64,000 nt of DNA, taken from the NCBI GenBank assembly GCA_030704615.1, contig CM060732.1, positions 64,418,001 to 64,482,000 on the forward strand, in the 5' to 3' direction. A program made the translations under genes and the position numbers. The stretch is from Takakia lepidozioides. Its lineage: Eukaryota > Plantae > Bryophyta. Positions 6,021 to 64,000 of this stretch are shown in pieces. A model generated the notes under the pieces. It was given only the letters and a program-made list of their open reading frames with translations. It was not told the origin of the DNA and made no database searches. Position 1 is the stretch's first letter. Each line of letters starts with the position of its first letter.

Positions 6021-6052
6021 AGACATTTGTAAAAACAAAAACTGCCAATCAT

Positions 6053-10431: not shown

Positions 10432-13400
10432 GATATAAACAAACACATGAGGAAGCAAATCAGCCTTGTATGCCAATTGTTTGTCCTCATCGGGTGCCAC
10501 CGCATGGCTATTGCCCTCCAAGAGCTCACCACCCCAAGCCACCACCCCTGAGAATGCAGCCAATGTGGGCATCATGTTCCTATGATCCACCGCTACATTC
10601 CCAATAAACCGCACTAGGAGCAGTGCACGCCGACCATCCCCTGACTGCCATTCCGGCCTGTAGGATGTCGTTTCCTCCCAAAAGTCCAAAGTAAAGCCCA
10701 TCGGGTATAACACAGCCCCACCAACAAGTACATCATAAGACATCGCGTCTGTAACAATGGCTTTAGCTCTCATGACAGAGCCATCTGTAGGATAATCTGG
10801 CAGCAATCGAATGAAGAGCTCATGGCGCGTAATCCCTTGTGTCTTCTTTGAACTGCCCAAAGATGTTTGAAATTGGAAAGGGCAAGGCTCCAAATCCGCC
10901 TCTGTAAGACCCAAGCCTGCAATTGCTGCTCTCCCCAACATCAATGGCTGTGCTCTCGAGTCCAACAAGACCCGCAGTGGCCTATACCTCCTCCCGGCTG
11001 GGCCACCCAACTGAAACACACCATCCTGATTGTCCACCAGGACTACCCCAGGAGTCACCATACTACGCTCAATGGCTGGTCTAGCTGACAACTCTTGCAA
11101 CCTTGCAGTTGTCGCTTGCCATGGCGCAGCTGTGGCTGTCTTCACCCTTGAATCCAGGGCATCCATGCACTGCACCTTATCATGCATCATCGCTCTCGCA
11201 GAGTCTAGCTGCTAGTCTGAACATAGCAGCTGACCGAATCCCTGGCATTGCAATGGTCATTGCAGAAAATAATGGAGCTTGGCAAACCGCCGTAGCCGCC
11301 CCCAACAATGTACTGGCTGCACCTCGCTTTGCTGCACCACCCACTGGCATTTACCGAGCCACACCAACTCTCCCCAATGACACTCGTGGCTCTACTTCTG
11401 GCACACTTGGGCGAGCGGGTGCCATCGATGACATAGTTGGCACTGTCTCAGCCAATGTGAAAGACTGTGGAAGCCTTGTCTGCCGACTTGCTTCCCCTCT
11501 TTGTGGATCAAAATCCACATCCGCTCCTCTTGGCTCAGGAGCACGCGTTGCTGCTCGAGTGACAACAGCTGCAGAGTCCACATGCAATGGTCCTGCAAGT
11601 GCGGCTCCACACATGAAGCCCATACCAATCTGGTCTTCTCTAGGCATAGGAGATTGTGCAGGTGGGGCTTGAACCTCAAGCCTTGGAGCTGGCGCAACAT
11701 GAGTAGTGGCCATGGCAGCAAGACGTTGCTCTAGCTGGGCAAGTCTATCCACCATGCTTTGGTCATGACCTTGACCCTGACCCTGTTCTTCTTGGTTTTG
11801 GTTACGTCCTCCACCCTGACCTCTGCCTCCTCTACCTCTCTGGACTACATTGCCTTGTCCTCGGCCACCATTGTTCCCTTGGAACTGGCCTGGCCGCAGT
11901 TCATGATGCAAGTTATAACAATGGGCCTCTTCATGCCCATACTTGCCACAATGCCCACATTGTAGTTGTGTAGGCTGTGCCTGTGCCGGCCCTTTGCCTC
12001 TTTCTGGGCAATCTCTCTTAACATGGGGTCCTCCACAATCCCAACATGTCACACCCGACTGTTATTGGCCTGAGAATGAAGGAAGTGACCTCTACAATTG
12101 AGATCCTCTCGGCCCTTCCCTGGGCTTCGCCTGAGCCCCCTTGTTGCCTTGAGCACGTTGGGCTAGTGGTTGTTGTTGGCTAGGAGCCCCACTTCGTTGT
12201 GTCTCCTGACCAAACCCCACCATGACCACTCACTCCTCCACCATATTGAGCTCTATCCGCTCTGCCAGCAAAAACACATTTGCTAAGGTGGGTTGATCCA
12301 CTTGTAGGAGAGTTGCATCCCGCACCCTTCTCCTCAGCTCCTTGTCAAGGATTCCATACCAGAACTAGACTGCCTGAGCTTCTGTAACCCCTTGGGTTAC
12401 GTTTATTAAGCGCCTCATGCGAGTGTAAGCCTCCCTCAAACTCTCGGCAGGCTTTCGTTGGAACTCTTGCAAACTCTGCAATTTCTCCGTCCTTATCCTT
12501 TAGTAGTTTCTCCTTAACTCCTCAAAGAACTCCACAACTGGGTTAAAAGCAGGCACGGGTGTTGGTACTGCAGCAGGAGCTTGGGTGGACTTCCCGGCTC
12601 CTGTTTCACTTGACGTCCCATTGCTGCTTGCGGAAGCTGCCGGTGTCACCACTGCCATTGTGCCTCTAGTGATAGAGACATAGTCAGGTGACCAATACAC
12701 CCACCATTCCTCAATCTCTACCTCATGTCCCCGCCTAAACTCATGGTAGTCATCCATGGGCGGCCCCTCAAGGTGCTGAAATAGCCCATTCCACGCCATA
12801 AAAGGCGTAAAAAGTTGTGGATTGCGCATCTGCTGCAAATCACATCAACTATCAAACTCCTGTATGAAATCATCAAGCTCGATGGTGCCCACAGCTCCAG
12901 AGTACCGACGTGGCCCCTTGGTAGCTCCATACATTTCCTCCATCATATCCCACAACAATGGCACGGAAATGGCTTGCACCCTCGGCGAGAATCCTCCTAA
13001 CTCTGAGTCTGAACCTTCATCAGAAGACACTGAAGGTGAAGGTGGCCTAAACCGCACACCTCGTCTTGTATACCCACTAGTATCACTGGTGCTCGTACCG
13101 GCACTCTCCTCAGCAACTGGTGGCACCTCCGTGATGAAAACTCACAACCACACTTGTTGTAAACTTGTCTCTAATCCCCCTTTCCACAAGGTAACCGGGT
13201 AGAGAACCTGTTGCGGCTTATGGCTTAGACTACTAGGTTCGTAACATAAACCTGCACCTGCATCCACCGCAAGCACTCATATGGTTTGTTGGTCATCAAC
13301 CCAGCCTCACCATAAGAGAAACAATGGCGGTCTGACTGGTCATCACCCCAGCCTCACCACCGATAGCATGCTCTAGGATTGGCCGGTGATCAAATCCGGA

Positions 13401-13620
13401 CCAACCTCCTATGAAAACAAGCGCCCACACAAAACAGACATGGCGCACAGTCAAGCATGCAGATGTGGGGGGGATCCAAACACAAGAAAATCAAAACAGT
13501 AACTCCCCCACACAAAAAAAAAACACTCCACAGTGTCGTTCCTGCAAGGACACCCCAGCCCAAACCCGGACTGACTCTTGCCTCCACCTACGGAAAGGTT
13601 TTGGCCTACATAGAGGGTGG
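10432..13620 (-). mobile_element. Truncated Ty3/Gypsy retrotransposon (leader, gag, aspartic protease), same family as the DNMT-carrying copy at 56-63 kb
   Basis: GATKGPRRYSGAVGTIELDDFIQEFDS, zinc knuckles CWDCGGPHVKRDC and CGHCGKYGHEEAHC, and protease VLLDSRAQ closely match the 59.4-62.5 kb copy. The leader 13250-13620 matches 62585-62940. The copy stops before the DNMT domain. Confidence 0.9.
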
Positions 13621-19268: not shown

Positions 19269-22200
19269 ATGGCGAAAGGCCATGCGGAGGGCGACGGATT
19301 CAGGGCGTGCACAGTTTGCACCAGTGCTTGTTTTATCGCACATAGGGAAGGGAAGGGGAAGCCGAGGGCGGGTTTGTATCCATCGTTTGTCAAGACAATT
19401 GCAGATTCTTCGGTGCACACCACCCAGCAGGCTAATCTGGTACGTGCTTGTCATTTTCATGTCACAGATAGAAAGGGCCTCTCCATCTGTTAGCATCTGC
19501 TTCTGGGAGTGATTTCGTTCAGAGACATCTGAATCTCGAAATGCTGAGTTTTTTCGGTCGAGGGTTAGGAGCTCCTTGGCTAGTAGGATAGCTAAAGAAT
19601 TCCATGCTCATTCCCATGCAAGTCTTCAAGGGCCGCTGCTTACTGAAAACGCTTGCGGCCTCTGTTTCAGCAACTGCCGAGGGCATTCTTGAAGTTGTAC
19701 ACTCCTCAAGGGAAAGAGACGATAAATCTTGAAGGACCCAGTGGGTGCAAATGGCCTGTGACCTTCAGAAACGGGGGCTTCTTTGGTGGATGGAAGGCGT
19801 TTGCAGTAGACCATGATCTGGAGAAGGGAGACCAGCTTGTCTTCTTTCTGACTGCAGACTCGCACTTCATCATCCAAGTGTATGACAAGCATGGTTGCGA
19901 GAAAGCTAGCTCTTACCAAGCAACCAACAGTGGCCTCTATGCTGGGAGGGGCTGGTACAGGAAATATAATAAAAAGCGAAAGCTGAGAGAAGAAGAGTGG
20001 GTACCCTCTGGTCCAGCAAAAAGGTTTCATTCCCAGGCATTGAGGAATTTCAAGGAAAGTGGCCCTCGAACGTTGTTGCCAGGTCGCAAATCCGTTAGCA
20101 AGATGTTCAGGAGTGGATTGTGGGAACGAGGGACGGAGAGCAGAGCACGCTTCTCTGCAGAGGAAGCCGATGGGGTTCCTCCTTTGCTTCTGCAAGAGGA
20201 GAGCATTCGTGTCAAAGGCGAGAAAACTCCACAATTCTGGGTGAGAGTTTGCACTACTGGATTGCATTCTTCCTGCCCATCTCCTGATCACTTGCAGGCT
20301 TTTGTGGTGCTAGATCGTGAGGGTGAAAACATGTTAAAGAAACAAAGTACACTCTTGAATAGGGGAGCATGGACTACGACCCTTCACCCTCTAACCATGA
20401 ATCTGTTCAGCCCTGGTCATTGATCAGGTACTGCATGTAGACAGCTCCAATCATTATGAAGAACTCAGATGAATGATGGAGCTTATCGTGAGATGTGGAA
20501 TATGCAGTGATACCAAAGGATTTCTTATGCATGGGCCAGTGTAGTGGTTGGTCGTTGAACCTGGGAAATTGTCCAGAATGTTTTTGTTCAGAAACTTGTA
20601 TGATTTTGCTGAGTGCAGGGAAATTGTGTTGGTTTGAGGGCAGCAGCTGCCCCCATATGCCTCCCATCATCTGCGAAGCGAAACTTAGCACGGATTTGTG
20701 CCAGAGCTGCCATAGCCAAGGCCAGATGGTCAAAGTTGTCGGAGAATTCTAGGCCCAACGCACAAAGACTTCAATTTGTGTGGAGGATGAGCCATGGCCC
20801 TTTACAGATCATGGAGAGCCATTACGAGGATAGGGTCAGTTCAGGGACGGGGGACAAAATTAGTCCGGCTGAGAGGTATTGGATGGAGGGTGAAAGAGGT
20901 TCACAGAATGATGATGGAGAGAGTGGAAATGGGAGAGGCAGGGATGCGACGTTTATGTATCGCGGCCATCGTCTCTGGAAGAGCAAAGGTCTTGGTTGCA
21001 CTGACAGAGGGAGCATGGCAAACCATCATCAGCTCCATAGCAGGCGTGCTGCAGATGCTGTGGGCACCGGAAAGAGAGGTAGGCCGCGAAAACAGCTCAG
21101 AGAGCGGGAAACAGAAGGGTTTGCAGAGCAAAAGATGCCCGTTAATCGTATGGGAGGGAGGCCCAGGTTAGAATGGAAAGGTGGGGTGAAGCACCAGATT
21201 CCCAACAAAAAGAGGGAAGGGAGCCTCGCAGCACAACAAAACATCGCAGGCAAGTGGAGTGAAAGAGAGGAGAAGAGAGACGTTTGGGTTTCTCAAAGAC
21301 GTCCTGTGTCACAGGAAGAGAAACTGAATGCCCTTCGCACCGCACGCTCCTATGCAGCAGAGACCAGAAAAACGAGTGGACTTGTGGTTATGCGACAGTC
21401 GTTTGTGTACAGAAACTTTGTTGTTGTAAGTATTCTCCCCTTCTAATTTGTTCATAAGGCAGAGAGAGCATGCATTCACTTGCTGTGGTGCCTCATGCCA
21501 TGTAAGTTTATACTCCCAAGTTCTTGAACTGCACCTTGTTTATTTCAATTGGGTAGCACGGCCAACATGATCGCCCAGACTCTGGTATGGTAGTTATGGA
21601 CCCACGTGTGGATTTTTCCTAGTTGCAAGCACTTGATGCTGTATTTCACTTCAAGTTGCAACCTGCCTTTTCATGGTGGTACTGTCGGCATTGTGCCATG
21701 ACCTTAACTTGCTAGTTGTGTTTTCTTTCGTACTCGCCTTACTCACTTGAAATTGAGTGTTCCTCACAAACCTATTGGGGGCATTTCATTGAGCTAATTG
21801 GAGGAGTCTTTTGCATCCTTCCCTTTCCTCAAGGTTACAATTTAGAAGGAAAGTCTCCAAACACAAAAACCCCCATCCTCATCGTTCAACAGCTATGCTG
21901 TGAAGAAAAGGATCCAAATCTGAACAGCTCCTCACAGGTAATAAGGTTTGGAAACCTTAAAGTTCACCATCTTTCAGTGTCTTAGGGTGGGAGGTTCCAC
22001 TGCTAGGGTGATTCCTTCCTCCTCTTTTATTCCAGCTCACCCCCACTTCTCCTTGCCCTAGTTTCTTTTTAAGGTAATTCTCCTTTGGTAGTGCCTGCTG
22101 CTAGAACCTTTGGTATAGAGCTTCATGCGCTAGTCTTTTTTATGTCCCTCGACAGGTTCTATTTCAGTCTTAGAGATATCCAATTCATAACCTTTTCCAT

Positions 22201-23838
22201 GCTCCTGATCAAAACGAAGTTCCATGAAGCATCTTGGTATAGGTAGAGATCTACTTGTCTCTATGTTTGAATCTTCTCACATGGACAAGATCAGTCTCAC
22301 CTCTATCCTGACGCTTCCTGTTGTTTTACATTGTCTCCCTATCCCTTAAAGGAAGGTGTGGGTCCTTCGCTTTGTAGCTTGGAAGCATGTCAAAACTTGA
22401 AGCCAACATGGTTCAACTACTTGTTGAAGTGGACGTACCTTCGGATAATTAGCTGGGTATTGAAGGATTGTTCCAGAACTAGTTGAAGTTGTACAATACT
22501 TCAACTTCCCCTAGATCAGCTAAAGCAAAACAAGTTACCCCAAGTTTTTGACTCATGTTTCTTAGTCATAGATATAACTTGCCCCTAATCATAAATTGCG
22601 CTAAACTGTGAAGACCTATGGCTGAAAAGCAGAGATGAATTAAACTCCATGGATAATCTTCCTAATTTTGAAGTTACTGAAGCTAAGAATTTGACTATTT
22701 TGTTGGCTTCTTATCTGTGGCAAATCTGTCTTTAAGCAATCTATTGGGATTCCAATGGGTAAGATTTTTGTGGTTGTGCTAATTTCTATCTCTTTACATA
22801 TGAGTTTGAGCATGGAACTCTTGATTGACCTTGGGACCTGCCCAGGACCCTCTGTCAGTAACTGAAGAAGTCAGTGGGGAGTTATATAAGAACTGGTTCC
22901 TGTCATGATATAGGACGTAGTTTATGGTCTCGTTCTCTTGGGTTGATCCTTAAAGTGATGGGACGGCATTCTTTCTGGTTCCCTTGTTGTTGTTTATCTT
23001 CCCTGACTTTTGTCATGAGCCTTCGTTTTCATCTCATGTGCTCTTCTTTGATCTTTGGTTACCTCTAAGATGTGAGTCTAGAAGTTTACTAGGTTCTCAC
23101 ATGGACATATGTATTGAGTGCAAGTGATGTCTCAAAGAGCAAGCTGAAGTGGTCAGGTGTGCCTAACATTGGTTGGAGCTATTCCTCTTATTTGCCTCAT
23201 CAAGGAAGTGCCTGTCCATGAAAATGTTTCTCACTCCTATGCAGGGATTTCCAAAGAAATTTTCCAGGGACCATTTACCAACAAATGAGATGGTAGTGAG
23301 TATAGTGGATGCAGCTGGCAAATCATGGCGAGCCAAATGGAATCCAAAGCATCAATACTTGTTTGGTAAAGGCTGGAGACACTTTGCCCTTGACCACTGC
23401 CTAGAGGAAGACGACGCATGTGTTTTTGAAGTGATTGACAACAGCAAGGAACTCCTTGTTCTATCAGTTCGCATCTTCCGTGTTGTCGAAATTGCCGATG
23501 GTGTCACTGGCTGGCAAGCTCATTTAAGGCCATCCTCAGGTTTTGTTGACAGACGCATCACTGATGGAGGGGGGGCTTCTGATGAGGCTGTCAAACTGGA
23601 GGCACCAGAGCCTGCACAGGAGGAGAAAAAAATACAGCGTGTATACTATGTGGTTCAAGAATTGTTAAACCGTCGGGAAGGAAAGAATGGGTTGGAGTTC
23701 CTTGTGAACCTCAATGGAAATGAAATGAAGGTTGGGAGAAAGGGGATGGAACAGGATCTTGCTGGAAATTGGTGGATTCCTGAGTCCTACTTCAACCCGG
23801 ATTTCACCCAGTGCTTCATGGAGTACTTCACGGACTAA
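19269..23838 (+). CDS. B3-domain (REM-like) protein with two B3 domains, an AT-hook and a C-terminal chromo-like domain, ~713 aa, 4 exons
   Basis: Exons 19269-19439, 19671-20240, 20619-21425 and 23245-23838 join in frame through GT-AG introns. Motifs: GWKAFAVDHDLEKGDQLVF, GWRHFALDHCLEEDDACVFE and KRGRPRK. Confidence 0.85.
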
Positions 23839-40257: not shown

Positions 40258-42848
40258 TTACTTAAAAACGCCCCGAGGTTGAGTGCGGATGTTCATATTT
40301 GTTCTCCATGAATCGCCGTCGCCTCCGGGCATGTCCTCAATTCTTCTCTTCACCGGCCGGCTGCGGACATCGCCCTCCAGGCAGTTCCCCCGACTGTGTA
40401 ACGGCGTTGACCTTATTGTTTCCCACAATGCAGCAGTCCATTTTTTGGGGTCGGTCGAACGATGCGTCGCCCTCATCAGCATCTCATGCCTGTCTGGTCC
40501 GATACCCCATTGCTTTCCTCCCAGAAATTGGTAGTAACCAGATTGTTGCATGATGACCCTCACAATATCTTCTGTTGTTGCTGTCAACATGTCAACGAGA
40601 TGTGCCGCAGAGGAAGCACGCCAGGAAGAGTGCACCGATTCGGCCATGTTTGTCGTCGGCATATCCGTGTCATCCTCCAAGCTCATGTCATGTTGAAGGA
40701 AATTAGAAATGTCACTCATTGTGAAGAATGTCCAAGCACAAAACAGAACAATTATCAAGTACAGAAATGTGTTATCTGTCTCATGTAGTCTCCAAACTGC
40801 CGGAATCTATAATGTCACCACGCAAGCCACATTTGCAGTTCTGGCTGATCTTTCACATCCACTGCCCCTGAAGACACCTAGCAGGCGCGTATGGTTGCAA
40901 ACTCGGTCTCCGCCTCGTCGATGGAATTCGCATTTTTCCACGCAAGGCACATACTGATATAATCCTGCCGGTGGCGTGACGCCACGAACCTTTTTGTGTT
41001 TTGCGTCAAACTCTGCTTGAAGTGAAACCCGCAAGATCTCTCTTTACCTTCCATTAGAGTCTTTGGGTCGTCCCCATATACCCTTCTCACTGCAGCCCAG
41101 TTCGCCTGGGCATTGTCAGCCATGAAGCCCCTAAAATCGAGAGGGGGCAACTTCGCTCTCGCCATTTGCTCATTAATTCCGCGCCACATATGTAACTCCG
41201 AATCTGTGTCTTCTCTTTTCATTTTGCAGATAGCAATGGTCATCAACTTTCTGCAATGTGGGTCGTATACATGTGCCCCCATTGTCACCCAATCGTGGTT
41301 GGTAATTCGCCTGATGTGGTCGAACATGACCCAACAATTTGAGAGGTCTCCACTGGTCATCCGCTTCACCAAATCGACACCGCTCCCCGGTCCGCACGTT
41401 GACATCTTAAATATGAAGCACCTGTCCGTCTCTGAGCCTTGACCAGGAAAGAAGCTGCCCTAGATGAAGTCGTAGCCGCATGTGCGCTTCACTTCCAAGA
41501 TGGAGTGCATGTCTGATCCTCTTCCGATTCGTTTCTTGTAGCAGACAATGTGGTTCCTGACATTGGGGCTACACACATGGGAGACAGCTTCCAGCAGCTT
41601 CTTCATGTCCCCCTCGCCCAGCTTCTTCATGTCCCCCTCGCCCAGCTTCTCTCTTGTGCTTCCATCCTCCGACATTATTCTGCCTATTGCAATTCTATGT
41701 GCGGATGCGAACTGTATCTGCTTTGGTTTTGCTCCCAGCCTCAACCTCACCTCCTCCTTGATAATATCGTGGGCTTGTTGAAAAGCGACTCTGCAATTGC
41801 CTCTGGCGACGGGGTGGTCATGCTTTCCGATGTGAATGCATGCTCTGGTGCACGCTGGGCCGACGGTCCCGACGTAGTACTGCTTGGCGTTGCACACTGC
41901 CATGCATATAGGGGTTGCGTTGCAATGGGCATACTTGAAAGTCCCTGTATGAACTCTACCTTGAGGCCAAAATAGGGTCGACGAATTGCCAATCCAGTCT
42001 GTCTCATTCCGGGTGCCTTTGCTCGTGTAGTGATAACATGTGCTCGAGAAACATTTAACATGTCCAGCACACAATACATATCTGACTCGAACTCCATCAT
42101 CCAGATTGGACGATGAAGTTTTGGTGACACACCATGGGTGGCCGTCATGTTTCTTGTTCATTCCTGCCAGCATTCCATCTGGGCCTGCGCCTGGTGGCAC
42201 TGGAGGGAACTCGTAGATAGCATTCTCATCCACAACTTCAGGCAAAGTTTCCACAGAATGGATTGGAGTTTTGTCGTAATCAAGCCTAAGAAGATCACTG
42301 GAGCGGGAACCCGCTGTCGTCATCCTCCGCAATATGTCGATTACTGAGCGGACGGGAGTTGAGTCCGAGGGTGTGTGCTCATTGTCTGCCGACATCTGCA
42401 CACTCATACTGACGGACGACTTCGAAACATACGATGGAAGGACCATACAGTCTTTATCGTCACTGGATAAGTTGTGGACGACTGTTTCCCTGGAAAGTGC
42501 ACCCACCGACGAGCTATGGAGCGGCAAATCCTCGATTTCTTTTTTCACATGTTTGGGCTTCTCTGCTTATGAAGAGGTGCCCACATCCCTCATGGCTGAC
42601 TTCACATCTTGCACGCCAGACCCTCTTGTGGAAGGAGGATCAACCAAGTTCCAGCGTGAGAACTCTTTAGGCACGATTTCACCAATTGCACTGTACCGGA
42701 TAGATTCAGAAGCTGGGAGCCGCCATTCTTTGCCCTTTCCGAAATCTGCATGCAGAATGATGGCACTTTCCAGAAAATTCCCATAAACATCCTTCGTCTC
42801 TTCTTCCAAAAACACCGTACCCGGGCGGAGCCCGAACTTCACACACAA
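40258..42848 (-). pseudogene. MULE/Mutator-like DDE transposase with an N-terminal GCM/WRKY-like zinc domain
   Basis: ORFs 42567-42848, 41460-42548 and 40878-41405 are in one frame, separated by single stops. Motifs: Cys-rich region ending IHIGKHDHP, WVMFDH (D1), FMADNAQANWAAV (D2), SCGFH (CxxH) and TTNMAESVH (E), the last after a decayed intron at ~40693-40776. Confidence 0.8.
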
Positions 42849-43182
42849 GTGCTGCTAAGTGACAATCGCAAATCCTTGGTCGCAGGGTATTTTAGCTTTC
42901 AGAGAATCAGGATGGAAGTACACGTTTACCCAAACACGAGAGTCCATGTTGAAGACAACAACTCTGGGTAGGCTCCGCAGCGAAGTCCTGCAATGAGAAA
43001 AGTGTGTCCTACATAATACCACAATCATTTTTTGGAGGATTCTGTATCCAGCAGGATGGATGATCATTGCAGGTATGGATGAAGGTGTGTAACGTACGTC
43101 ACAAATACGGACGACTACTGGAAATTGGGTGCCTGAATTGTGATGTACCACCAGTTGGGCTACAATAAATCAGGTCTTCTCA

Positions 43183-44450
43183 TGATTTCGGCACCGAAAT
43201 CCGGATGAACATCTCTGTCATGTAACAGATATAGAAGCCACGGGATGAATTTCGCCGACAGAATTTCGGGATTAGTTCACCTCATGAAACTGAGCTAGCA
43301 CCCAACGGATGGATTTCGGTGCCGAAATTCGGATGAACATGTTCTTCATGAAATTATTTCTGCACATAAAGGATGAATTTCGGCGCCGAAATACGGATGA
43401 ATGTGTTCCTCAGTAGAGTCATGATTCACCACGTGTACGGATTTCGGTGCCGAAATCCGGATGACGGTAACCCTGAATGGACAGTAGGGATGAATTTCGG
43501 CGCCGAAATTCATCGTTCGCATGGAAAAAATATTATTGGAGAGAGGACGGTGGATGGATTTCGGCGCCGAAATTCATTATTATTCTACTTTTTCCTAAGT
43601 TTTTTGTTGTCCTGCAAATGAATTTTGGCGCCGAAATTCATCCGAAGTCCTCCCTCCATTATTATTTTCCTTTGCGAGCGCTGAATTTCGGTGCCGAAAT
43701 TCATCCAAAGTCCTCCCTCCAATAATTATTTTTCTTTGCGAGCGATGAATTTCGGCGCCGAAATTCATCCCTACTGTCGGCAAAGGGTAACTCCAATATT
43801 ACATTTTCCATGCGACGAATGAATTTCGGCGCCGAAATTCATCCGAACCCGACACTTACTTCTTGCTTCTGGATGATGTAAGGTTCCGAAATTCGTATGA
43901 AATAACCCATTCAGACAGAGAAAACACGAATATTCTGCATTAAATGGAGAAATCGGCACATTTAACCCCTTATGTCTTTCAAAAGGCTGTTATCCAATGA
44001 CGTAAGGGGATATTTTCTGATTAGAGAAAATTTAATTGCATTTTAGCCGTTGATTTCATTTGAAACCGACTATATCCATTAAGCGGTCATTTTTCGTACA
44101 GGAGGTTGCCGCAAATAAAGTATAATTTCGGCGCCGAAATTATACTTAACAGTCCAGACATGGCAAGTCCAACAGGCATGGACAGCAACCGTGATGGGCA
44201 CTGATGACAAGAAAGCGTGGCATGATGTCGGTTTACTGTTCGAGCTGGATGTATTTCGGCGCCGAAATATGGATGAAATGTATCCAAGTGCAGCGTTCTG
44301 CACAGTTCCGGAATTAATTCCGGATCTGATATCCGACTGACAGGTGTGCTGATGACGGATGAGGACTGGGGAAGCGATGAATTTTGGCGCCGAAATTGAA
44401 ATGTTTGTGTATGAAAGCACTTGCAAGGATGAATTTCGGAGCTGAAATTC
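43183..44450. repeat. Array of ~15 palindromes (GAT)GAATTTCGGCGCCGAAATTC(ATC)
   Basis: Core positions 43189, 43253, 43317, 43381, 43445, 43498, 43562, 43626, 43689, 43753, 43827, 44129, 44257, 44385 and 44437; some copies are degenerate. Confidence 0.95.
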
Positions 44451-45121
44451 ATCCGTCCGCTAATGAAACGTGCCGACCTGACTGTTGAATGTCGGTTGGC
44501 GGTTTGATTTCATGGCGGTTGGGGTTTCATGATGTGCGGGTAGTGCATTCAATGTTGGCTGCTCCGGGAACAGCATCCGGTGAACGGAACGGTATTCGGC
44601 GCCGCAATTCGGATAAAGCGTCTTCTACCGGTGGCTTGAACAGGCACGCGTCGCATTCCAGAACAACTTCATCCGTCTGAACGTGTCAGGGGTCGCAATC
44701 TCTTTATCACCCATACGGCGGAAAGTGGTGGACAGTGGCAACGCTTGGGGAGACGTGGCTGCTTGCGCATCTGCTCGTGCACAGTGGTTGCATATTCCAC
44801 CGTTTCGCTCTCTCACTCCTTGCCCTTCTGCGGTGACATTCTCCTGCGTTTCCTCTCTTTATGCAGCAGAGTGATAGCCTAGAGTTTGTGGAAGGTCAGG
44901 CGACTCCGGCGTAGAGAAGGAGGACGCGGGATTTTGGGAAGCCGCCGACGACACGACTGAAGCTCTGTCTCATGCAGGAAATGCAGACCTCGTTATCCGG
45001 AGACTCGGATCGCCCACCAGTGAGAGATTCGTGCTTCGCGGATGTGAAGCCCTCATACGCACTATTCCTTTTACACCTTTTTTTTTGCGTGCAGTGTGTC
45101 ATGTTTTCCTGTTTGTTTGAC

Positions 45122-55040: not shown

Positions 55041-55974
55041 CGGCAAAACAGGCTGAAATAGCTCGAAGAAGAAGGTGCCCTCACCACATTGTCCTCTACC
55101 TTGTGTCATGACCCATTGCGGATTAGACTGACCATGAACCCAAGAAGACCTCTTGTGCGTGTTGTTTGTATCTCTAGTCAGGTAATGTGGGATTGGTTCG
55201 TAAGAACCACCACGGTGCAGCTGAGCGGGCAGAGATAAAATATGGGTTGCTAAGACCAAGCTGATTCCCCCAAGAACCTTGTGATCATCAGGAAGAATAC
55301 CAAATCATGGTACAAAGGGGAGCCAAGAGCCCACATTTGCACATAATGCGCCCTTGACGCCATAAACGCTTGCAACAACAAGACATGGGCCTCGATTTGG
55401 TCTTCGTCCTTCTCGCATCACTTGTTCGTCTCTCTCTCAAGCCTCCATCCCTCTCCCAACACTTAGACAAATTCAGGCAAAGGACAAAGTTACTCTTCCA
55501 CCCTTAGATCATTTTACATCTGACGATTAGAACAATCTCTATGAGCCACACAAGCCCTAAAATACATTAAAATATTCCACGTCATGAGCCATGTGGAGCA
55601 CTTATAAAAATTCCATTTTTGAATAGGGTGTGCAATGAATGCCTAGTTGTTAAGAGTCGTTCTCTAGTGCTTAAAACCACTTGTAATTGCTGTTTTTAAA
55701 AAAAAAACAATTTACGTAATTGAATTAAATCGCCGCGAATATTGTGCCGACTGCGGAGTCATTGATGCAACTTCTATCCGCCATTAGAAATGTGAATTTA
55801 TCCGTTACGACTGTGCAGTAGTAACAAACATCTCAAAGTTGTTCCCTCAGTGGTTTTGGACATGCAGTCGATTCCGAAAAGACACGAATGCTTCTAGTGG
55901 TTCGTCCCTCCGTCGGCAGACTGTCTACTTCTGAGGACATGACATTTTCCGCCCATGCTGCAAATGTGGGATCA

Positions 55975-57125
55975 ATCCACTTGGAGAAGTGCTCCACCAT
56001 CACCAACACGTACTTGTTGTGGCCCATGGTCAGTGGCAACGGCCCTGCGAAGTCAAGACTCCACCTGTAGCCCAATCCCATGATCGAAAGAGGGTGCAAT
56101 TGTGGAGTAGGGGCGTTGAATGAAGCACGCACCCTGTCACACACCATGCACCTAGCCACAAATTGTTGCACCTCTGTGTGCATACCACGCCACCAATATT
56201 GCCCCTGCAGTAGACTATAAGTGCATCGCACCCCAAAATGCCTCAACTCCTCATGGGCATGGCGCACTAACCGTGCCCGCTGTGTTGGGTGAGGCACAAT
56301 CCTCACTCGACCATCCTCCCACACTCGGAGCAGGTGTGTCCCCTCCCACTTGAACCTCTTGGCTCGTTGTAGGATCCGATCCCTCTCCTTGGCAGTCACA
56401 GTGGATGTCGTGTCTCCAGTGCGGAGGTAGTCCAACACAACTGAATCCTCATGTATATCTTTGGCGTCACCTTGCTCATTGCTGGCCTCAGGGTCCTCAG
56501 ACACTTGATCTACAGTCATCCCTGTTGCAGGTCCAACCTGGCCTTCCGTTGCCAAGATACACAAAAATGCAGATGCATGCCATCCGGGCACCATCTCCTT
56601 GTCCGTCTCACCATGCCACCAAGCTCCAGTGTCATCCTGTTGGCTCGTGCATGGATTGCAACTCAACCCATCTGCATTGCGATTGACCAAACCCGGTCGA
56701 TGCACCACCTGAAAGTCATACTCTTGAAGGATGAGTGCCCACCGTGCAAGCTTCCCCGTAAGCTTGTCTGACTCCATCAACCACTTGAGTGGTTGGTGAT
56801 CCGTGACAAGGGTGAAGAGATTGCCGTATAGATAGCACCTGAAGTGTGCCACGGCCCACACTGCAGCTAAGCATTCTCCCTCATATGAGCTATACTTAGA
56901 CTCTGCAGCATTGTTCGAGCGGCTAGCATAAGCCACTACGAACTCTCTTCCCTCATCATCCACCTGTGTGAGCACCGCTCCAAGCCCCAGCATGCTCCAA
57001 TCTGTATGCAGTTGAAAATGACGCCCCCTGATAGGTCGTCTCAAGATGGGCGCCGAGGTCAACCTCGCCTTGAGCTCTTGAAAAGCTTGTTCTTGCTCAT
57101 CTTCCCATTGCCACTCCTGGTCCAC
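55975..57125 (-). pseudogene. RNase H plus integrase (zinc finger and start of the core)
   Basis: LHTDWS, YEGECLA, TDH and NADGLS; HEELRH..CMVC, SLDFAGP and EHFSKW, followed by an abrupt break. Confidence 0.95.
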
Positions 57126-57139
57126 CTTGGTCAGCTTGG

Positions 57140-57964
57140 TTAGAGCCTTTGCAATGACACTGAATCCCTTAACCCCATGAAAGCTCGAACTCGGCTCACA
57201 TCCGTGGGGCGTGGAACCTGTGCAATGGACTCTACCTTAGTCTGCTGTACCCCCAATCCTCCAGGATATATCATGTGACCCAGATACTCAATCTGGTTGT
57301 GGAAAAACTTGCACTTGCCTGGATGTAACTTCAATCCGTGCGTCCTTAAGCGCTCAAATACCCCCTGAAGGTGTCTCTCATGCTCCTCCACCGTAGCACT
57401 AAAGATGATGATGTCATCTATGTAGCACCGAGCAAACTCCACCCCTGCTAGAATCCTGTCCATGACTCTTTGAAACTCAGCTGGAGCGTTTTTAAGCCCA
57501 AATGGTAAGAACCGCCACTGGTATAGGCAATCCTTCCCGTGCTCATTGATCCCCCAGAATGCCGTCTTTTGCTTATCCGCCTCCTTGATCGGCAACTGGT
57601 GATATCCGGATCGTAAATCCAACGTGCTAAAGACCTTGGAATGCCCAATGGCATCAAAGATCTCATCTGGTGTTGGCATGGCATACCTATCGGACTTGGT
57701 CTGACGATTTACAGGTCGGTAATCACCGCACATACGTCTCTCCGTCCAATTGCCATAGACATCCTTCTTAGCTGGCATCACTGTGGCTGAAGCATACTCT
57801 CCACCAGAGAGCTCCACCAAACCTGCCTCCCAGAGATCTTGAGTCCTCATCTGAATCAAAGACCTCTCCATGTCACTGTATCTATAGGGTCTCCGAAAGA
57901 TTGGCGTGTCAGTGGCCAACTCAATACGGATCTCTTGACCCTTCAGTGCTCCCAAGTCCTTCAA
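57140..57964 (-). pseudogene. Reverse transcriptase
   Basis: RMCGDYR, LDLRSGYHQ, PFGLKNAP, YIDD and YLGH. A small deletion after FMGL shifts the frame to KGFSVIAK. Confidence 0.95.
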
Positions 57965-58379
57965 ACTGAAGACAAAGCAATTCCTGTAAGCCCTCAGGAA
58001 CCGCCGTATACGTCGTCTCTCTCCTCCGGTGACAATGGGTCCAATGTCAGGCTCCCAATTGTCCTCCGTAACTGCAACCTTAAGTCCAGTGGGCTTAGAG
58101 GTAGATGACGCGTCCCGTGGTTGCTATGCTGCAACCTCTTGAGCAGTACTCCCTTCCTGCTCAGTCAATGACAAGGCCTCATCCTGCCCCATCATCTCAT
58201 CATTGAGAACCTCCTCAACCCGAAAAGAATCCCCAACCTCATCCATCACAGCTGCCTTGGCTGCCAACTCCCTTTGAACCTCGAGCACCTCTCACGTGTG
58301 CCATGGATATCTACACCCGTGGTCCTCACCGGCTCGCCCCCACTCGCTGCCTGTACTGTCTCGGTAGGCAGAGAGACCA

Positions 58380-59545
58380 TGAAGGGGAGTGCACTCCGTA
58401 CTCTACGTTGCTCAGCCATAGCCAAGCTGATAATCCAGGTCAAGCAATTGAGATCCATTGCTTGCCCCAACACCTGACGCCGTGATGCCTCAGAAAGAGA
58501 AGGCACCGCCGTGGTCCCAGTGGAAAACCCCATAGCCCGCTCTCGCTCGTCGGCATTAGGCTCCACTAACTGCTGCAACTGAGCATCCCACAGGAGGCCA
58601 GGTCCACCATCCCGAAAAGCATGGGATCCTGGGAAGCTGAGCAGTGTAGGTAATGCTGCTCGTGGTTGACCCACCCTGTTGACCACTGCCAAAGGCGAAC
58701 GGTCATCGTGTCTCACACGTTGAGACTGCCTCCCTGTGTCCAAAATGCCATCCACGGTGAGGTGTGCTGGCCGTTGCACCCCATCAAATGCACGCTTGAG
58801 CAGTGCGGGTGGCATCAAGTTAGTCCACCATAGCCGTGGACGATGAGTCCGTGATCCCATTGCAGTTGCATCCAGCAGCACTGCTGACCCAAGCCACGAC
58901 CGGACTTGATGCACACTAGCCATCACCCTGGCCCGAGAATCGCCCATCAGTGGCACATTCTCCAAGATATATGCTGGCGATACAGCTTGATGAAGCTGCA
59001 AGTGGCACAAAATCCGCACCATCTCCCAAAACAGACCCGTCCTCGAGTCTCGCAATCCATTGCCATGCCCGGCTGATGAATGCCCTTGGCAGGGCCAACC
59101 TGCCACTACCAGATCAATGGAGCCAACCTGCTCCAAATCCGGCGCCCCCAGCAACGAAATGTCTGCTGGCAAGGCTTGTTGGTATCCACGAACTGCAGAC
59201 ACTGGCAACAAAGCAGGGTACTGCTGTACCAACTGAGCAACATGGCGCAGTGAGACGCGTGATAGAAAAGCTAAGTACACACTGTTGACACAAAACATGA
59301 CAACCAAAACCATCACTCTTTAGAATAGAAGTCGAGCCAGGGGCACCCCAAGCTGTGGGGACTCCACCCCACAACAACCTACACTCCCATCATGAGCACA
59401 CTCAGTCCTACACGATGAAGGAGCTCGATCGCGTAGGCTCATCCCTCTCCACATACAGGTAACGCCTTACCCGCACACCTGCCTGTAGCACAGCAGCCAA
59501 TCCGGTGCTGATCCCGCCAAACAAGTCCAAAAGCCAAATGCCTTC
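58380..59545 (-). pseudogene. C5 DNA-cytosine methyltransferase domain within the retrotransposon polyprotein
   Basis: Motif I LDLFGGISTG, II YVERD, IV GWPCQG (catalytic Cys), VI ENV, VIII RPRLWW, IX ERERAMGF and X LGQAMD. The domain is split by an insertion at 59261-59429. Confidence 0.93.
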
Positions 59546-62494
59546 ATCTGGATACTGCCACACAATAGGTGTGGTATCCAATGGTGACAACTGAGGTGGT
59601 CCTGGTGCAATACCCGCACTCTCCTCCTCTCCTGACGGTACAAAAGCCTCTACCCAGGCTTGTTGCACCTGTCGATCAGCAACCTGCTGCAAATCCTTGC
59701 TCGTACCCCACAATGGAGTGTGAGCAACCATGGCAGGCAACTCCGCCATACCATGCATGTCATCCTGCTCTGCTGGAGGTGACACATCCTCTGCATGGGC
59801 ATTGCCTTCCAGCAACTCTCCAGGCCAACTAACTGCAGCTGTAAAGGCGGCTAATGTTGGCATCTTGCCCCGTTGGGCAGCCGCAATACCCCCAATGAAT
59901 GTCACAGGGAGCTGTGCACGACGACCATCCCCTGACTGCCATCCAAGCCTATAGGATGCTGACTCCTCCCAAAAGTCCAGGGTGAAGCCTATGGGATATA
60001 ACACTGCCCCACCAACGAGGACATTGTAAGAGACTGCGTCTGTCACAATGGCCTTGACCCGCATCACTGAGCCATCTACAGGATGATCCGGCTGCAATCT
60101 AATGGCCAACTGATGCCGTGTCATGCCCCGAGCCTGCTCTGATCCTCCCAGAGATGTCTGTATCTGGAAATGACAAGGCTCCATATCCGCCTCCATGAGG
60201 CCCAAACCTGCAATAGCAGCTCTGCCCAACATCAGTGGCTGGGCTCCCGAGTCTAACAAGACCCGCAGTGGCCGGTACTTCTTGCCTGCCGGTCCACTCA
60301 AAGTGAAAATGCCTCCCTGGTTGTCTAACAAGACAACTCCAGGTGTCACCATGGCGCGCTCAAAGGCTGGCCTAGCTGACAGCTCCGTCAACCTGACAGC
60401 TGCAGCTTGCCAGGGCGCAGCCGTGGCAGTCTTGACCCTCAAATCCGAGGATCCCTCTGCCACTACACCTTCCACTAACTCCGCAGAAGATGAAGTGACC
60501 TCCCCACTCTCACAGAGTGTTGCTGCTAGTCGGAACACTGCAGCTGGTCTCACCCCCGGCGTCGCAATCATTGTTGCCGAGAACAGTGGGGCCTGACACA
60601 CAGAGGTGGCTACCCCCAATAACACACCGGCCGCACTAGCCTTGGCAACAGGTGTCAGTGCTGCACGTGTAGCTCTCCCCAATGGCATAGAAACCTCCGC
60701 CTCGGTAACAGTCGGGCGAGAACTAGGTGCCATGGATGGCGTTGACACTGTCTCCGCCAAGGTGAATGACTGAGGCAGCCTTTCCTGACGGTTTGCCTCC
60801 CCACGTTGTGGATCCAACTCCACCTCTGCACCTCGTGGCTCAGGAACTCGTGCTGCTCCTCGAGTCACGGCTGCAGCAGACTCCATCTGCTCTAGTGGTA
60901 GTGCTGCTCCGCACATGAATCCCATGCCTCCCATATCTCCTCCCTCAGGAGCAGGAGGTGGACCATCCCGCCTGGGAGCCGGTACCGCCTGAGCTATAGC
61001 CATGGCAGCGAGTCTCTGCTCTAGCTGCTGAAGCCGATTGGCCATGCCTTGGTCAACACCCTGACCTCCGCGTCCTTGGCCATGTGGAGCTTGCCCTTGG
61101 CCTGCACCTCGTGCCCGACCACCTCGTCCTCTTTGGGCTGGTCCACCTCGCCCCCGACCACCATTGTTCCCTTGGAACTGGCCTGGGCGCAACTCAGGAT
61201 GCAAGTCATAACACTAGGCATCTCCATGCCCATACTTGCCACAATGCCCACACTGCAACTGTGCAGGCTGTGCTTGTGCCGGCCTTTTGCCACTCTCTGG
61301 GCAATCTCTCTTGACATGGGGTCCTCCATATGTCCAACATATCACCCCTGGTTGCTGTTGGCCTGCAAAAGATGCCACGGGCCTCTGCACCTGAGGTCCC
61401 CTGTAAGCTCCATGGAACTTGGGCTGGGCAACCTTGCCCCCCTGACCACGCTGTTGGGCAGTCCCTTGTGCCTGTGGGCTGACAGCTGTGCCCCGTGCAG
61501 GCATGTCCTTGCCAAATCCAATTGTAACAACTCGCTCCTCCACCATGTTGAGCTCAATTCGCTCAGCCAGCAGAAACACATCTGCTAATGTGGGTTGGGC
61601 TGCTTGTAACAGGGTTGCATCTCGCACCCTTCTCTTGAGCTCCTTGTCCAGTATTCCATACCAAAACTGGATTGCCTGAGCTTCAGTAACCCCTTGGGTC
61701 ACACTTATCAAGCGCCTCATACGAGTGTACGCCTCTCGCAGGCTCTCATTGGGTTTGCGCTGGAAGTCTTGCAAACTTCGCAGCTTCTCTGTCCGTACAC
61801 CTTGGTAGTTCCTCCGCAACTCCTGGAAGAACTCCACCACCGGGTTGAATCTAGGCACATATGTTGTAGTCGTGGCAGGAGAAGTAGTAGCACCTTTTGA
61901 ACTGGTACCACCTGCAGAAGTACCAGCACTACTTGCTCCACTACTAGTGCTGGCAGTGGGAGCTATTGGTACTGATGCAGCTACTGGTCGTGTCGTGCCT
62001 CGAGTAATGGAGACGTAGTCAGGTGACCAATACATCCTCCACTCCTCAATCTCTGCTTCATGTCCTCGCCTGAACTCGTGGTAATCGTCCATAGGCGGGC
62101 CTTCCAAATGCTGGAACAGTCCCTTCCACGCCATGAATGGGGTGAATAGCTGTGGATTGCGCATCTGCGGCAAATCACACCAGCTGTCGAACTCCTGGAT
62201 AAAGTCATCCAACTCGATTGTGCCCACAGCTCCAGAGTACCTACGAGGCCCCTTGGTAGCTCCATACATCTCCTCCATGTCGTCCCACAACAATGACGAA
62301 TGAAAGTGCACACCTGTTGATGAAGCCTCCGAGTCTGTGTCTGACTCTACAGTAATTGAGGGTGGCGGTGAAGGTGGTCTGAACCGAATACCTCGTCTTG
62401 TGAACCCACTCTCACTGTTACTGCCTGTAGCCGTACTCCCCTCAAAACCCTTGGGTAACTCCGTAATGACACTCACAATGTGCACCTCCTCCAT
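59546..62494 (-). pseudogene. Gag (two zinc knuckles, RGG tract) and aspartic protease
   Basis: ORFs 61214-62494 and 59408-61204 are in frame across a single TAG. Motifs: CGHCGKYGH..*C and VLLDSGAQ. Confidence 0.9.
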
Positions 62495-63014
62495 GTGACA
62501 CTATAAGGCTCTAGTACTAAGCTAATAGTGACACGGGTGGGCACCTGTTGCAGTTTAAGGGTCATATCCTAGTGGCTCAGGGCACCTGCACCTGCATCCA
62601 CCGCAAGAACTCCTATGGTTGGCTGGTCATCAACCCAGCCTCACCATAGAAGAAACACTGGTGGTCTTGCTGGTCATCACTCCAGCCTCACCACCGACAG
62701 CATACTCTAGGATTGACCGGTGATCAAATCCGGCCTAATCCCTATGAAAGCAAGCGCCCACACAAAACCAACATGGCGCACAGTCAAGCATGCAGGTGTT
62801 GGGGGGGGATCCAAACACAAGAAATCAAAACATCAACACCCCCACACCAAAATCCAGCTGCAATGCTGATCCTGCAGAATAGCCCAGCCCAAAACCCCGG
62901 ACTGACTGGCCTCCACCAAGAGAGGCTTTGGCAACTACAAGTACAAGGTAATGAAAATAGTACAGAGATGGAGGGAAAGAATAGAAGCCCGACCAAGCAA
63001 GATCTAATCCTGAT

Positions 63015-63776
63015 CTATGCTATCAACTGCCAGACTTCTCTCAAAGTGCCTCGCTCTGCATGATGGTAAAGTGTAGGAGGTATATCTATGTCCAGAAACC
63101 TGCCACTAACCTTGTCCCAAGCTACAGTAGCTCGCTCTAACCAACCCTCCTCCTCTTTCTGCCAGGTAGAGACAAAGCAATACTCCCCTATCTCCCGCTC
63201 ACTGAACACTAAGGAAAACAAAGGTAGGGTCTGATAGTCTCTCAACTCGAAAGCTTTGAGACGGTTGCGGGTGTCCTCATTGCGAATGACTGCATCTCCT
63301 TCACGTACAACAAACATGTCATTGCTAATGAACCCCCGCTCGTGGTTGCCCTGTGCAGAGCGTATCCGGCTGCAACCATGTCTGATTGCACAAACTAGTG
63401 TAGCTCCTGCTCCTCTGTTCCAGTACACCACGGCCTTATGGCTGAACACCTTGGTCCCCGGGGCTGTCTTTGGCTGTGTTCCAAGCCTAGCTTTCACCCA
63501 CTTTGGTATTTCACCTACAGCTGCAGAACTGCTGGCTCCAACAGAATTCTGACTGTCCAAGGCGATATTGAGGCCCTCAATGCCAACTACAGCAGTCTGT
63601 TGTCTACTGCTAATGCCTGACTCCCAGTATGCAATCAACTCGTCCAACTGTTCTCCACTCAAATCAGTCTGAGTTCCTTGGGAAACATAAATCCTGTCCC
63701 CTTGTGTGCACAGGCTAAGAGAAGAGACCTGCCCTTCAATTACGTCCTCATTTCCCCAGCCATACAAGGAGTACAT
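63015..63776 (-). CDS. 253-aa ORF of unknown function upstream of the retrotransposon leader
   Basis: Uninterrupted ATG-started ORF with protein-like composition, on the same strand as gag. No motif recognised. Confidence 0.4.
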   Translation of the reverse strand: MYSLYGWGNEDVIEGQVSSLSLCTQGDRIYVSQGTQTDLSGEQLDELIAYWESGISSRQQTAVVGIEGLNIALDSQNSVGASSSAAVGEIPKWVKARLGTQPKTAPGTKVFSHKAVVYWNRGAGATLVCAIRHGCSRIRSAQGNHERGFISNDMFVVREGDAVIRNEDTRNRLKAFELRDYQTLPLFSLVFSEREIGEYCFVSTWQKEEEGWLERATVAWDKVSGRFLDIDIPPTLYHHAERGTLREVWQLIA

Positions 63777-64000
63777 CCCCAGATTTATCTCTCATGTAGA
63801 CCAGAACAGGTTCTAGAAACAGGATTGTGGATCTTTCATGGCACACTCACACTCACAAAATTCCATAGATTTCTAGCAGAGTCCCAAAAACAAAAACCAG
63901 ATCTAAATAGGTAGATATCCCCTTTCTGCAGCTATCCCCCCAAAAACTGGGTCAAACAGAGTCCATTTGACAAAGATATGACCAATTTGGCTTTAAATCA

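What the first reader, a model, noticed from the sequence alone, without database searches (positions are those of the whole stretch)
55975..62494. Ty3/Gypsy retrotransposon encoding its own DNA cytosine methyltransferase between protease and RT
Seen: the C5-MTase motifs (FGG, PCQ, ENV, RxR, IX, X) are in order and in frame directly after the protease, ahead of RT-RNaseH-IN, so the domain looks like part of the polyprotein rather than a chance insertion. Established: standard Gypsy elements lack this domain; DNMT-carrying retrotransposons were reported in dinoflagellates and a charophyte alga (de Mendoza et al. 2018). Inference: this is a land-plant representative. The enzyme would be released by the protease in the particle and could methylate the new cDNA before or at integration (self-silencing or host mimicry). 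It has no BAH, chromo or UBA domain, unlike MET1, CMT and DRM.
Basis: partly seen in the sequence, partly recalled or inferred. Interest (0 to 1): 0.9.

Follow-up and report, generated by a model that had tools for sequence, protein, structure and literature searches.

The report
Plant retrotransposon carrying its own methyltransferase
This is a broken copy of a jumping-gene family, also present in liverworts and peat moss, that carries a DNA-methylating enzyme domain at the end of its capsid gene, just before a conserved and likely leaky stop codon, so the element likely packs the enzyme in bulk into its particles and is predicted to methylate its own new copies.

Summary
The domain is real: a DNMT3-like cytosine methyltransferase (Pfam 7.9e-13; best solved match DNMT3A) between protease and RT of a Gypsy-type element on the minus strand. 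This copy is dead, and its motifs are not in one frame: a copy-specific ~177-nt insertion splits motif I from IV-X, and the integrase is cut at 55972. It is no one-off capture. Relatives occur in Marchantia, Calypogeia, Sphagnum and Klebsormidium; methyltransferase and RT trees agree; the catalytic Cys is kept in 143 of 146 distant relatives. It belongs with KnitGypsy-Dnmt3 (de Mendoza 2018), including the A-coding-B-A-B repeats seen in relatives. I did not find these points in print: presence in land plants; a conserved TAG-CAA stop (TMV-type leaky context) that makes the enzyme the C-terminus of Gag-protease rather than part of Pol; a PHD finger on the integrase; and a large sister group (Scenedesmus) with the enzyme between RNase H and integrase. 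Likely working: readthrough makes Pol, the enzyme is packaged at Gag level and methylates cDNA. Readthrough, activity and target are inferred, not shown. New variant of a known kind.

The parts
62495..62939 (-). 5' end and leader; element begins TGTAG at 62939
   Evidence: Homology between the two window copies stops at 62939/13610; both start TGTAG with unrelated flanks
61214..62494 (-). ORF1, gag part with zinc knuckles; premature stop at 61213-61211
   Evidence: 49% identity over 978 columns to Marchantia P0003 across gag, protease and motif I
59900..60380 (-). Aspartic protease (LLDSGA at 60259-60242)
   Evidence: Motif place; no Pfam hit in this copy; gag-asp_proteas hits below cut-off in relatives P0019, P0063 and above it in P0175
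59439..59560 (-). Methyltransferase N-terminal part, motifs I-II, in the protease frame
59260..59438 (.). Copy-specific foreign stretch (~177 nt) that breaks the methyltransferase frame
   Evidence: Skipped in 10 contigs of run X1 and in the X9 contig; no clear match elsewhere in the window (best E 0.11) and none in the 80 loci
58390..59259 (-). DNMT3-like methyltransferase, motifs IV, VI, VIII, IX, X, open for 287 codons
   Evidence: fold of a relative's domain matches DNMT3A
58118..58126 (-). Conserved ORF1 stop in leaky-type context, TAG CAA CCA, in frame with RT
   Evidence: CAR YYA consensus from PMC2754532 (passages)
57170..58060 (-). Reverse transcriptase (YIDD 57424-57413)
   Evidence: Pfam RVT_1 4.1e-33; 25-nt gap at 57169 against the X7 and X9 contigs
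56718..57023 (-). RNase H
   Evidence: Pfam RT_RNaseH 9e-36
55972..56288 (-). Integrase zinc finger and start of the core, truncated at 55972
   Evidence: other copies run on past 55972 (loose ends); relatives continue to rve core and PHD finger
10502..13610 (-). Second, more decayed copy: 5' end, gag and protease, cut before the methyltransferase
   Evidence: 72% identity over 3215 columns; protein matches with many stops

Best explanation
This is a dead copy of a Gypsy-type retrotransposon family that encodes a DNMT3-like cytosine methyltransferase domain at the end of its Gag-protease reading frame, before a conserved stop that is likely read through to make RT, RNase H and integrase, so the enzyme is likely packaged in excess over Pol and is predicted to methylate the element's new cDNA. 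Shown: domain order, fold class, conservation across liverworts, Sphagnum and algae, the conserved TAG/TAA-CAA stop, and in relatives the PHD finger, the A-coding-B-A-B repeats with TG...CA ends and a 4-bp target duplication. Inferred: (1) most ribosomes stop after the methyltransferase and a minority read through (about 0.65); (2) the particle therefore holds about as much enzyme as Gag, freed by the protease (0.55); (3) the enzyme methylates cDNA before or at integration, so that new copies arrive marked like host repeat DNA (0.5); (4) the PHD finger steers integration by histone marks (0.4). Family membership and long-term constraint on the domain: about 0.9.
For: Relatives: 71 proteins, 22 named (17 Marchantia, 2 Calypogeia, 2 Sphagnum, 1 Klebsormidium), up to 74% identity; 148 related stretches in metagenome contigs, 80 kept; 496 clusters at 50% identity with E<=1e-30. 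Fold: model pLDDT 72; all 38 listed Foldseek rows DNMT3A/B/C, best E 3.9e-14; profile E 1.2e-20 to DNMT3A, 1.3e-7 to DRM2, 4e-7 to M.HhaI. Constraint: Cys 143 of 146, ENV Glu 148 of 149, both RxR arginines 146 of 148, median column 47%; window versus 11 loci pN 0.22, pS 0.76, against RT 0.17 and 0.76. Co-descent: Mantel r 0.71 over 85 rows; enzyme-before-RT versus enzyme-after-RNase H split 100/99 in the RT tree and 99 in the quick DNMT tree. Stop: first in-frame stop before RT is TAG/TAA-CAA in 47 of 66 loci with an RT hit; stop+CAR in the expected 80-nt window in 50 of 61 distinct junctions against 16/60, 2/58, 1/61, 6/61 in control windows; 15 of 270 premature-stop positions are followed by CAA; kept in three lineages saturated at silent sites, as CAA CCA, CAA CCC and CAA TTA/TCA. 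30 of 34 Gag-PR-DNMT proteins of 1200 aa or more end 44-138 aa behind the domain (many are near-copies). Pol start codons vary within 90% clusters and some starts lie inside RT.
Against: No activity, readthrough, RNA or particle data. The Klebsormidium domain did not methylate yeast DNA (PMC5890265). Within the Sphagnum-type lineage the domain has the highest dN/dS of five regions (0.74 against 0.47-0.61), though these are decayed copies. The main lineage has C, not A, at position +6 of the context and an ATG two codons after the stop. No conserved stimulatory structure behind the stop: z below -2 in 1 of 7. The three lineages share ancestry, and the main-lineage loci are near-copies, some the same locus. 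Nineteen of 66 loci fail the in-frame test (decayed or rearranged; three of them show TAA CAA on inspection). CpG depletion of the element (0.50) is hardly different from the rest of the window (0.58). The junction in other copies of the window's own species was not examined. No host DNMT3 and no DNMT-free Gypsy outgroup were in the trees.
Confidence: 0.55

Rival explanations
1. Pol is made by splicing out the stop, as in Ogre elements, where an intron separates Gag-PR from RT-RH-IN.
For: Precedent in plants (PMC6317226, passages). Six public gene models of Marchantia and Sphagnum bridge the stop to RT sequence.
Against: Those six models join at different places. The stop is single and in frame, with only 45-78 nt to the RT match, whereas Ogre spacers average 274 bp. 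A stop inside an intron gives no reason to keep CAA-YY. One contig of a possibly-RNA run spans the stop without a joint (record 18; weak).
Confidence: 0.15
2. Pol is translated separately, by reinitiation or from its own RNA, at an ATG shortly after the stop.
For: ATG two codons after the stop in the Sphagnum-type lineage, Met 4-5 codons after it in the second lineage, and many called Pol proteins start 7-20 residues before the first RT motif.
Against: The window copy has no ATG before RT. The Met position is not conserved. Close relatives swap Met and Val at the called start, and full-length Pol ORFs P0401/P0402 start inside RT. A free Pol needs its own packaging route (general knowledge).
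Confidence: 0.15
3. The enzyme is kept for another job: binding nucleic acid in the particle, methylating RNA, or methylating host or sibling-element DNA in trans to limit damage.
For: No activity on DNA in the only test of this family (PMC5890265); the paper itself lists RNA methylation and slowing of transposition as options. Gag-level output would supply much free enzyme.
Against: All catalytic residues are kept, which argues against a mere binder. The closest folds are DNA enzymes, DNMT2 is far weaker. Related DIRS-borne Dnmt3 domains methylate CG de novo (PMC5890265).
Confidence: 0.25
4. One-off capture of a host DNMT piece by this copy, now drifting.
For: This copy is broken at five places and the second window copy has no methyltransferase.
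Against: The second copy is simply cut before the domain. The same arrangement stands in several plant genera and hundreds of clusters, with congruent trees and saturated silent sites.
Confidence: 0.01

Closest known systems
KnitGypsy-Dnmt3 of Klebsormidium nitens (de Mendoza et al. 2018, PMC5890265; read parts 1-4 of 7 and searched 3 supplements)
   Same: Gypsy domains with a Dnmt3-like enzyme; DIRS-like repeat layout; purifying selection. K. nitens KFL_009030040 is PR-DNMT-RT-RH-IN, 45% identical in the domain, and lies on the same side of both trees.
   Different: Described as an acquisition in the K. nitens lineage, with the enzyme in the Pol ORF. Here it is in land plants, the enzyme ends ORF1 before a conserved stop, and relatives carry a PHD finger ('PHD' not found in the paper's held supplements; I could not see Fig. 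4c). Marchantia and Sphagnum were not in its genome table.
SymbioDIRS-Dnmt3, SymbioLINE-Dnmt (PMC5890265) and EpiLTRs (bioRxiv 10.64898/2026.05.21.726589, passages)
   Same: Retroelement-borne cytosine methyltransferases; EpiLTRs also pair a writer with a chromatin reader.
   Different: Other element classes or a DNMT4-related enzyme with chromodomain and DAM; other hosts; other positions in the ORFs.
TMV-type (type I) stop-codon readthrough, UAG CAR YYA (PMC2754532, passages)
   Same: Window context TAG CAA CCA fits the consensus; L078 has TAA CAA TTA. The paper notes readthrough candidates among rice gypsy elements.
   Different: Not measured here; the Sphagnum-type lineage has CCC at +4 to +6. 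The stop lies after protease and methyltransferase, not between gag and protease.
Host DNMT3 of bryophytes and human DNMT3A/B
   Same: Unrearranged motif order I-X and best sequence and fold matches.
   Different: About 22% identity to DNMT3A; no PWWP or ADD Pfam hit; intronless and inside a retroelement. Plant host DNMT3 genes did not appear in my searches, so the donor is untested.
Gypsy-7a_cRei of Chlamydomonas reinhardtii (bioRxiv 10.1101/2022.06.16.496473, passages)
   Same: Green-lineage Gypsy element with a PHD finger and LTR subparts.
   Different: No methyltransferase is listed among its domains; sequence relationship not tested.

Membership tests
Ty3/Gypsy superfamily | Order gag-PR-RT-RH-IN with DDE integrase | tested here: met
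Ty3/Gypsy superfamily | Integrase-type ends and target-site duplication | tested here: met
   In relatives: TG...CA ends (TA in L048), 4-bp duplications CATA (L054 and L057, one locus) and TCTC (L048). The window copy has only its 5' TG.
Ty3/Gypsy superfamily | Two complete identical LTRs | tested here: not met
   Relatives have A-coding-B-A-B or A-coding-B; none in the window. So it is Gypsy by its enzymes, not a canonical LTR element.
KnitGypsy-Dnmt3 / Gypsy-DNMT3 | Dnmt3-like, unrearranged C5-MTase with conserved catalytic residues | tested here: met
KnitGypsy-Dnmt3 / Gypsy-DNMT3 | DIRS-like split repeats with Gypsy domains | tested here: met
   Full layout in L048, L054, L057; B-A-B in L004, L008, L049. 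Shown in relatives, not in the truncated window copy.
KnitGypsy-Dnmt3 / Gypsy-DNMT3 | Common descent of RT and DNMT with the Klebsormidium element | tested here: met
   Same side of the 100/99 (RT) and 99 (DNMT, quick tree) branches; unrooted, no DNMT-free outgroup
KnitGypsy-Dnmt3 / Gypsy-DNMT3 | DNMT in the same ORF as RT | tested here: not met
   Conserved stop between them; Klebsormidium-like proteins are continuous. Hence a variant.
KnitGypsy-Dnmt3 / Gypsy-DNMT3 | Purifying selection on the DNMT | tested here: met
   Between lineages pN 0.22, pS 0.76; within decayed copies 0.74
DIRS / PAT (tyrosine recombinase elements) | Tyrosine recombinase, no integrase or protease | tested here: not met
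   rve integrase and aspartic protease, no recombinase hit in the proteins scanned
Chromovirus | Chromodomain at the integrase end | tested here: not met
   PHD finger instead, E 2.7e-8 in L057
REXdb lineages (Phygy, Selgy, Athila, Tat, Chlamyvir) | RT placement among reference elements | not tested
   No reference sequences came from my searches; PMC6317226 has no 'PHD', 'methyltransferase', 'Marchantia' or 'Sphagnum' in its text
Active C5 DNA methyltransferase | Methyl transfer to DNA and its sequence context | not testable with these tools
   Residues only
Type I readthrough signal | Measured readthrough | not testable with these tools
   Context only

The most novel reading that the evidence does not exclude
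One old lineage of integrase retroelements spans the green plants, from chlorophytes to bryophytes, and carries a methylation writer (DNMT3-like) plus a histone reader (PHD). The writer moved between two places in the polyprotein. In the branch that reached land plants a leaky stop turned it into a structural-level component of the particle, so each new copy is methylated by its own enzyme. Its split repeats hold the two integrase ends joined by two bases (CA-NN-TG), which points to a replication route other than the two-LTR strand transfer. With 17 matching gene models in Marchantia alone, such enzymes may add to de novo methylation in bryophytes.
Probability: 0.4. Interest if true: 0.87.

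Novelty: new variant of a known kind. Interest (0 to 1): 0.72.

Why it matters
Transposon-borne cytosine methyltransferases were reported from algae, and one opinion paper assumed that land plants lost them (PMC6338049, passage). They stand in Marchantia, a genetic model with methyltransferase mutants, as full-length ORF1 gene models labelled 'hypothetical' or as DNA methyltransferases. That makes the open question of 2018, what a retroelement does with a methyltransferase, testable in a plant. The conserved stop predicts enzyme dose and location. These genes can also inflate counts of plant DNMT genes and confuse work on de novo methylation in bryophytes.

Tried and rejected
No whole genome is held for this window, so no intact copy from the same genome was seen. 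Viral contigs: nothing with P0019, one weak 35% locus with the window domain (not followed). Single-sequence fold failed (pLDDT 33). The ESM Atlas did not complete. Sequencing runs: no RNA holder listed. CpG and CWG depletion gave no self-methylation signal; 24 of the best-supported transitions private to this copy fall in CG 7, CHG 10, CHH 7 against a background of 245, 337, 1177, which shows methylation-type decay but not who methylated. RNA folding behind the stop showed no conserved structure. Earlier findings of the scan: none by sequence, place or full word set; eight others by broad words, none on this family. Host placement with one host gene gave only two hits, both 68%, one Physcomitrium. 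Rejected: chromovirus, DIRS, one-off capture, single ORF. Literature: ten searches listed no paper on this family in land plants. The library lacks most subscription papers, and the 2026 preprint writes 'streptophytes (Gypsy-DNMT3)', so a wider range may be known to its authors; I did not see its supplements.
Full report
What is there. The stretch 62939-55972 on the minus strand is a Gypsy-type element. Pfam finds gag (weak), a C5 cytosine methyltransferase (7.9e-13), RT, RNase H and the integrase zinc finger in that order, with the protease motif LLDSGA at 60259. Methyltransferase motifs I, IV, VI, VIII, IX and X are in canonical order. They are not in one frame in this copy. Motif I continues the protease frame; a foreign stretch of about 177 nt follows (59260-59438); motifs IV-X are in another frame. 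Contigs of public runs skip that stretch and run on past 55972, so the insertion and the integrase truncation belong to this copy. There is also a stop in the zinc knuckle (61213-61211), a frameshift near 58315 and a 25-nt gap at 57169. The family is abundant in the source organism: 45,654 contigs of run X1 were laid on 4.4 kb (depth is no copy number, and X1 may be the source sample). A second, more decayed copy at 13610-10502 ends before the methyltransferase; both copies begin TGTAG with different flanks.

It is a family, not an accident. The domain found 71 longer proteins; 22 bear species names: 17 Marchantia, 2 Calypogeia, 2 Sphagnum, 1 Klebsormidium. None is from a vascular plant, but that search is word-based and capped in length. 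The RT search added a complete Pol ORF from a Coleochaete transcript assembly, without the domain in that ORF. Metagenome contigs gave 148 related stretches, of which 80 were kept; the integrase end of locus L003 reads like the Sphagnum fallax model P0043. A profile search found 496 clusters at 50% identity with E up to 1e-30. Of the best 150, 98 show another retroelement domain, mostly RT-RNase H-DNMT-integrase; a named one is Scenedesmus pol, with a PHD finger.

Class of enzyme. A model of a Sphagnum-type domain from 12 aligned sequences (pLDDT 72) matches DNMT3A/B/C in all 38 rows listed, best E 3.9e-14, about 22% identity. The profile gives 1.2e-20 to DNMT3A, 1.3e-7 to DRM2 and 4e-7 to M.HhaI. 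Among the 150 representatives the catalytic Cys is kept in 143 of 146 that cover it, the ENV Glu in 148 of 149, both arginines of RxR in 146 of 148; the median column is 47% conserved; the Pro before the Cys is Glu in 75 of 145. Window against 11 loci: pN 0.22 and pS 0.76 for the domain, 0.17 and 0.76 for RT, 0.30 and 0.78 for protease. Against this, among the decayed Sphagnum-type copies the domain has the highest dN/dS (0.74; others 0.47-0.61).

Descent. DNMT and RT path lengths correlate over 85 rows (Mantel r 0.71; kin share labels, so this shows co-descent only broadly). On 39 of those rows (3 near-copies and most enzyme-after-RNase-H rows left out) both trees split enzyme-before-RT from enzyme-after-RNase-H elements, 100/99 for RT and 99 for the quick DNMT tree. 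The window groups with Calypogeia and Marchantia (97/91; 97), with Klebsormidium on the same side of the split. With moss loci added, the window RT is sister to a liverwort plus Sphagnum-type group (96/92). No host DNMT3 or DNMT-free Gypsy was included, so donor and root are open. The host is likely a land plant: two B3 genes, a DUF3752 gene 68% identical to Physcomitrium and the tree position. It is not named.

The stop. The window has TAG CAA CCA at 58126-58118, in frame with RT. In 47 of 66 loci with an RT hit the first in-frame stop before RT is TAG or TAA followed by CAA (14 of 80 had no RT hit). By position, 50 of 61 distinct junctions have stop plus CAR, against 16 of 60, 2 of 58, 1 of 61 and 6 of 61 in control windows (two TGA cases are probably out of frame). 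Only 15 of 270 premature-stop positions are followed by CAA. The honest unit is the lineage: window (CAA CCA), main Sphagnum-type (CAA CCC) and a second lineage (CAA TTA or TCA) keep it although silent sites are saturated and the linkers differ. Thirty of 34 Gag-PR-DNMT proteins of 1200 aa or more end 44-138 residues behind the domain; three eukaryotic gene models bridge on, and one ends after 13. Klebsormidium-like proteins run on into RT, as the 2018 paper says. CAR YYA is the TMV leaky-stop consensus, with 6-10% readthrough in stable Arabidopsis lines (PMC2754532, passages). Rivals are splicing as in Ogre (PMC6317226), weakened by six gene models that join at different places, and reinitiation, weakened by the missing ATG here and variable Pol starts but helped by the ATG two codons on in the main lineage. 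No conserved RNA structure follows the stop. Whether other copies in the window's own species keep the stop was not examined.

Ends and integrase. Relatives end in a PHD finger (E 2.7e-8). L048, L054 and L057 show A-coding-B-A-B (A about 340, B 115 nt); L004, L008 and L049 show B-A-B. Ends are TG...CA with 4-bp duplications at two independent sites. In 7 of 7 loci the inner B-A junction is the right end, two bases, then the left end (TG decayed to TA in two), and a G-run precedes B. Nine other loci examined end at a lone B. This matches the statement that KnitGypsy-Dnmt3 has DIRS-like repeats with Gypsy domains (PMC5890265, Fig. 4 legend).

How it likely works. Most ribosomes make Gag-PR-DNMT; a minority read through to RT-RNase H-integrase-PHD (inferred). 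The particle would then hold far more methyltransferase than RT, the protease would free it, and the cDNA would be methylated before or at integration (inferred). New copies would arrive marked like host repeats, which could hide them from surveillance or damp their own output. Related DIRS-borne Dnmt3 domains methylate CG de novo in yeast, but the Klebsormidium domain did not (PMC5890265). Target context cannot be read from my data.

Novelty. The kind is known. Ten literature searches listed only the 2018 paper and a 2026 preprint for it. The 2018 text does not name Marchantia, and its held supplements name neither Marchantia nor Sphagnum. Passages of five bryophyte or land-plant chromatin and genome papers did not mention it. 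The preprint's phrase 'streptophytes (Gypsy-DNMT3)' and unseen subscription papers leave room for prior notice. Verdict: new variant of a known kind, interest 0.72.

Noticed in passing
L003:10464-10493, also L004, L008, L048, L049, L054, L057: The inner B-A junction joins the right end (..ACGACA) to the left end (TGTCATG.., decayed in two loci) across exactly two bases in 7 of 7 loci, like joined integrase attachment sites; a G-run precedes B. It hints at an unusual replication route.
   Followed up: partly
P0227, P0061, P0058, P0212, P0215 and others: A large sister group, one member named Scenedesmus pol, has the same methyltransferase between RNase H and integrase plus a PHD finger; motif IV often reads ECQ instead of PCQ.
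   Followed up: partly
P0356 (CAA9586175.1): A Pol of this family is filed under an uncultured cyanobacterium, likely plant DNA in a metagenome bin.
   Followed up: no
P0082, P0083, P0084, P0087: Several Marchantia copies, two with full-length ORF1, carry V/Y chromosome gene names.
   Followed up: no
L058, L065, L070, L075: Old copies of the second lineage sit as inverted, nested duplications of the methyltransferase-RT region.
   Followed up: no
window 4566-6293 and 9778-10227: Tandem arrays of 50-53 nt units, each with a short palindrome of type GCGACCGCC..GGCGGTCGC; they flank an ORF with a weak kinase-like match at 8167-9261. Possibly DNA-transposon subterminal repeats.
   Followed up: no
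window 43179-44617: Array of about 64-nt units with the palindrome ATTTCGGCGCCGAAAT, next to long minus-strand ORFs at 40258-42566 that have no Pfam hit where scanned; likely another transposon.
   Followed up: no
window 19647-20423 and 23167-23838: Two B3 DNA-binding domains of a host gene.
   Followed up: partly
window 63015-63791: A 258-codon minus-strand frame without Pfam hit directly upstream of the element's 5' end.
   Followed up: partly
window 16728-17555: hAT transposase dimerisation remnant, weak.
   Followed up: no
L081: One viral-collection contig with a weak 35% match to the methyltransferase core.
   Followed up: no
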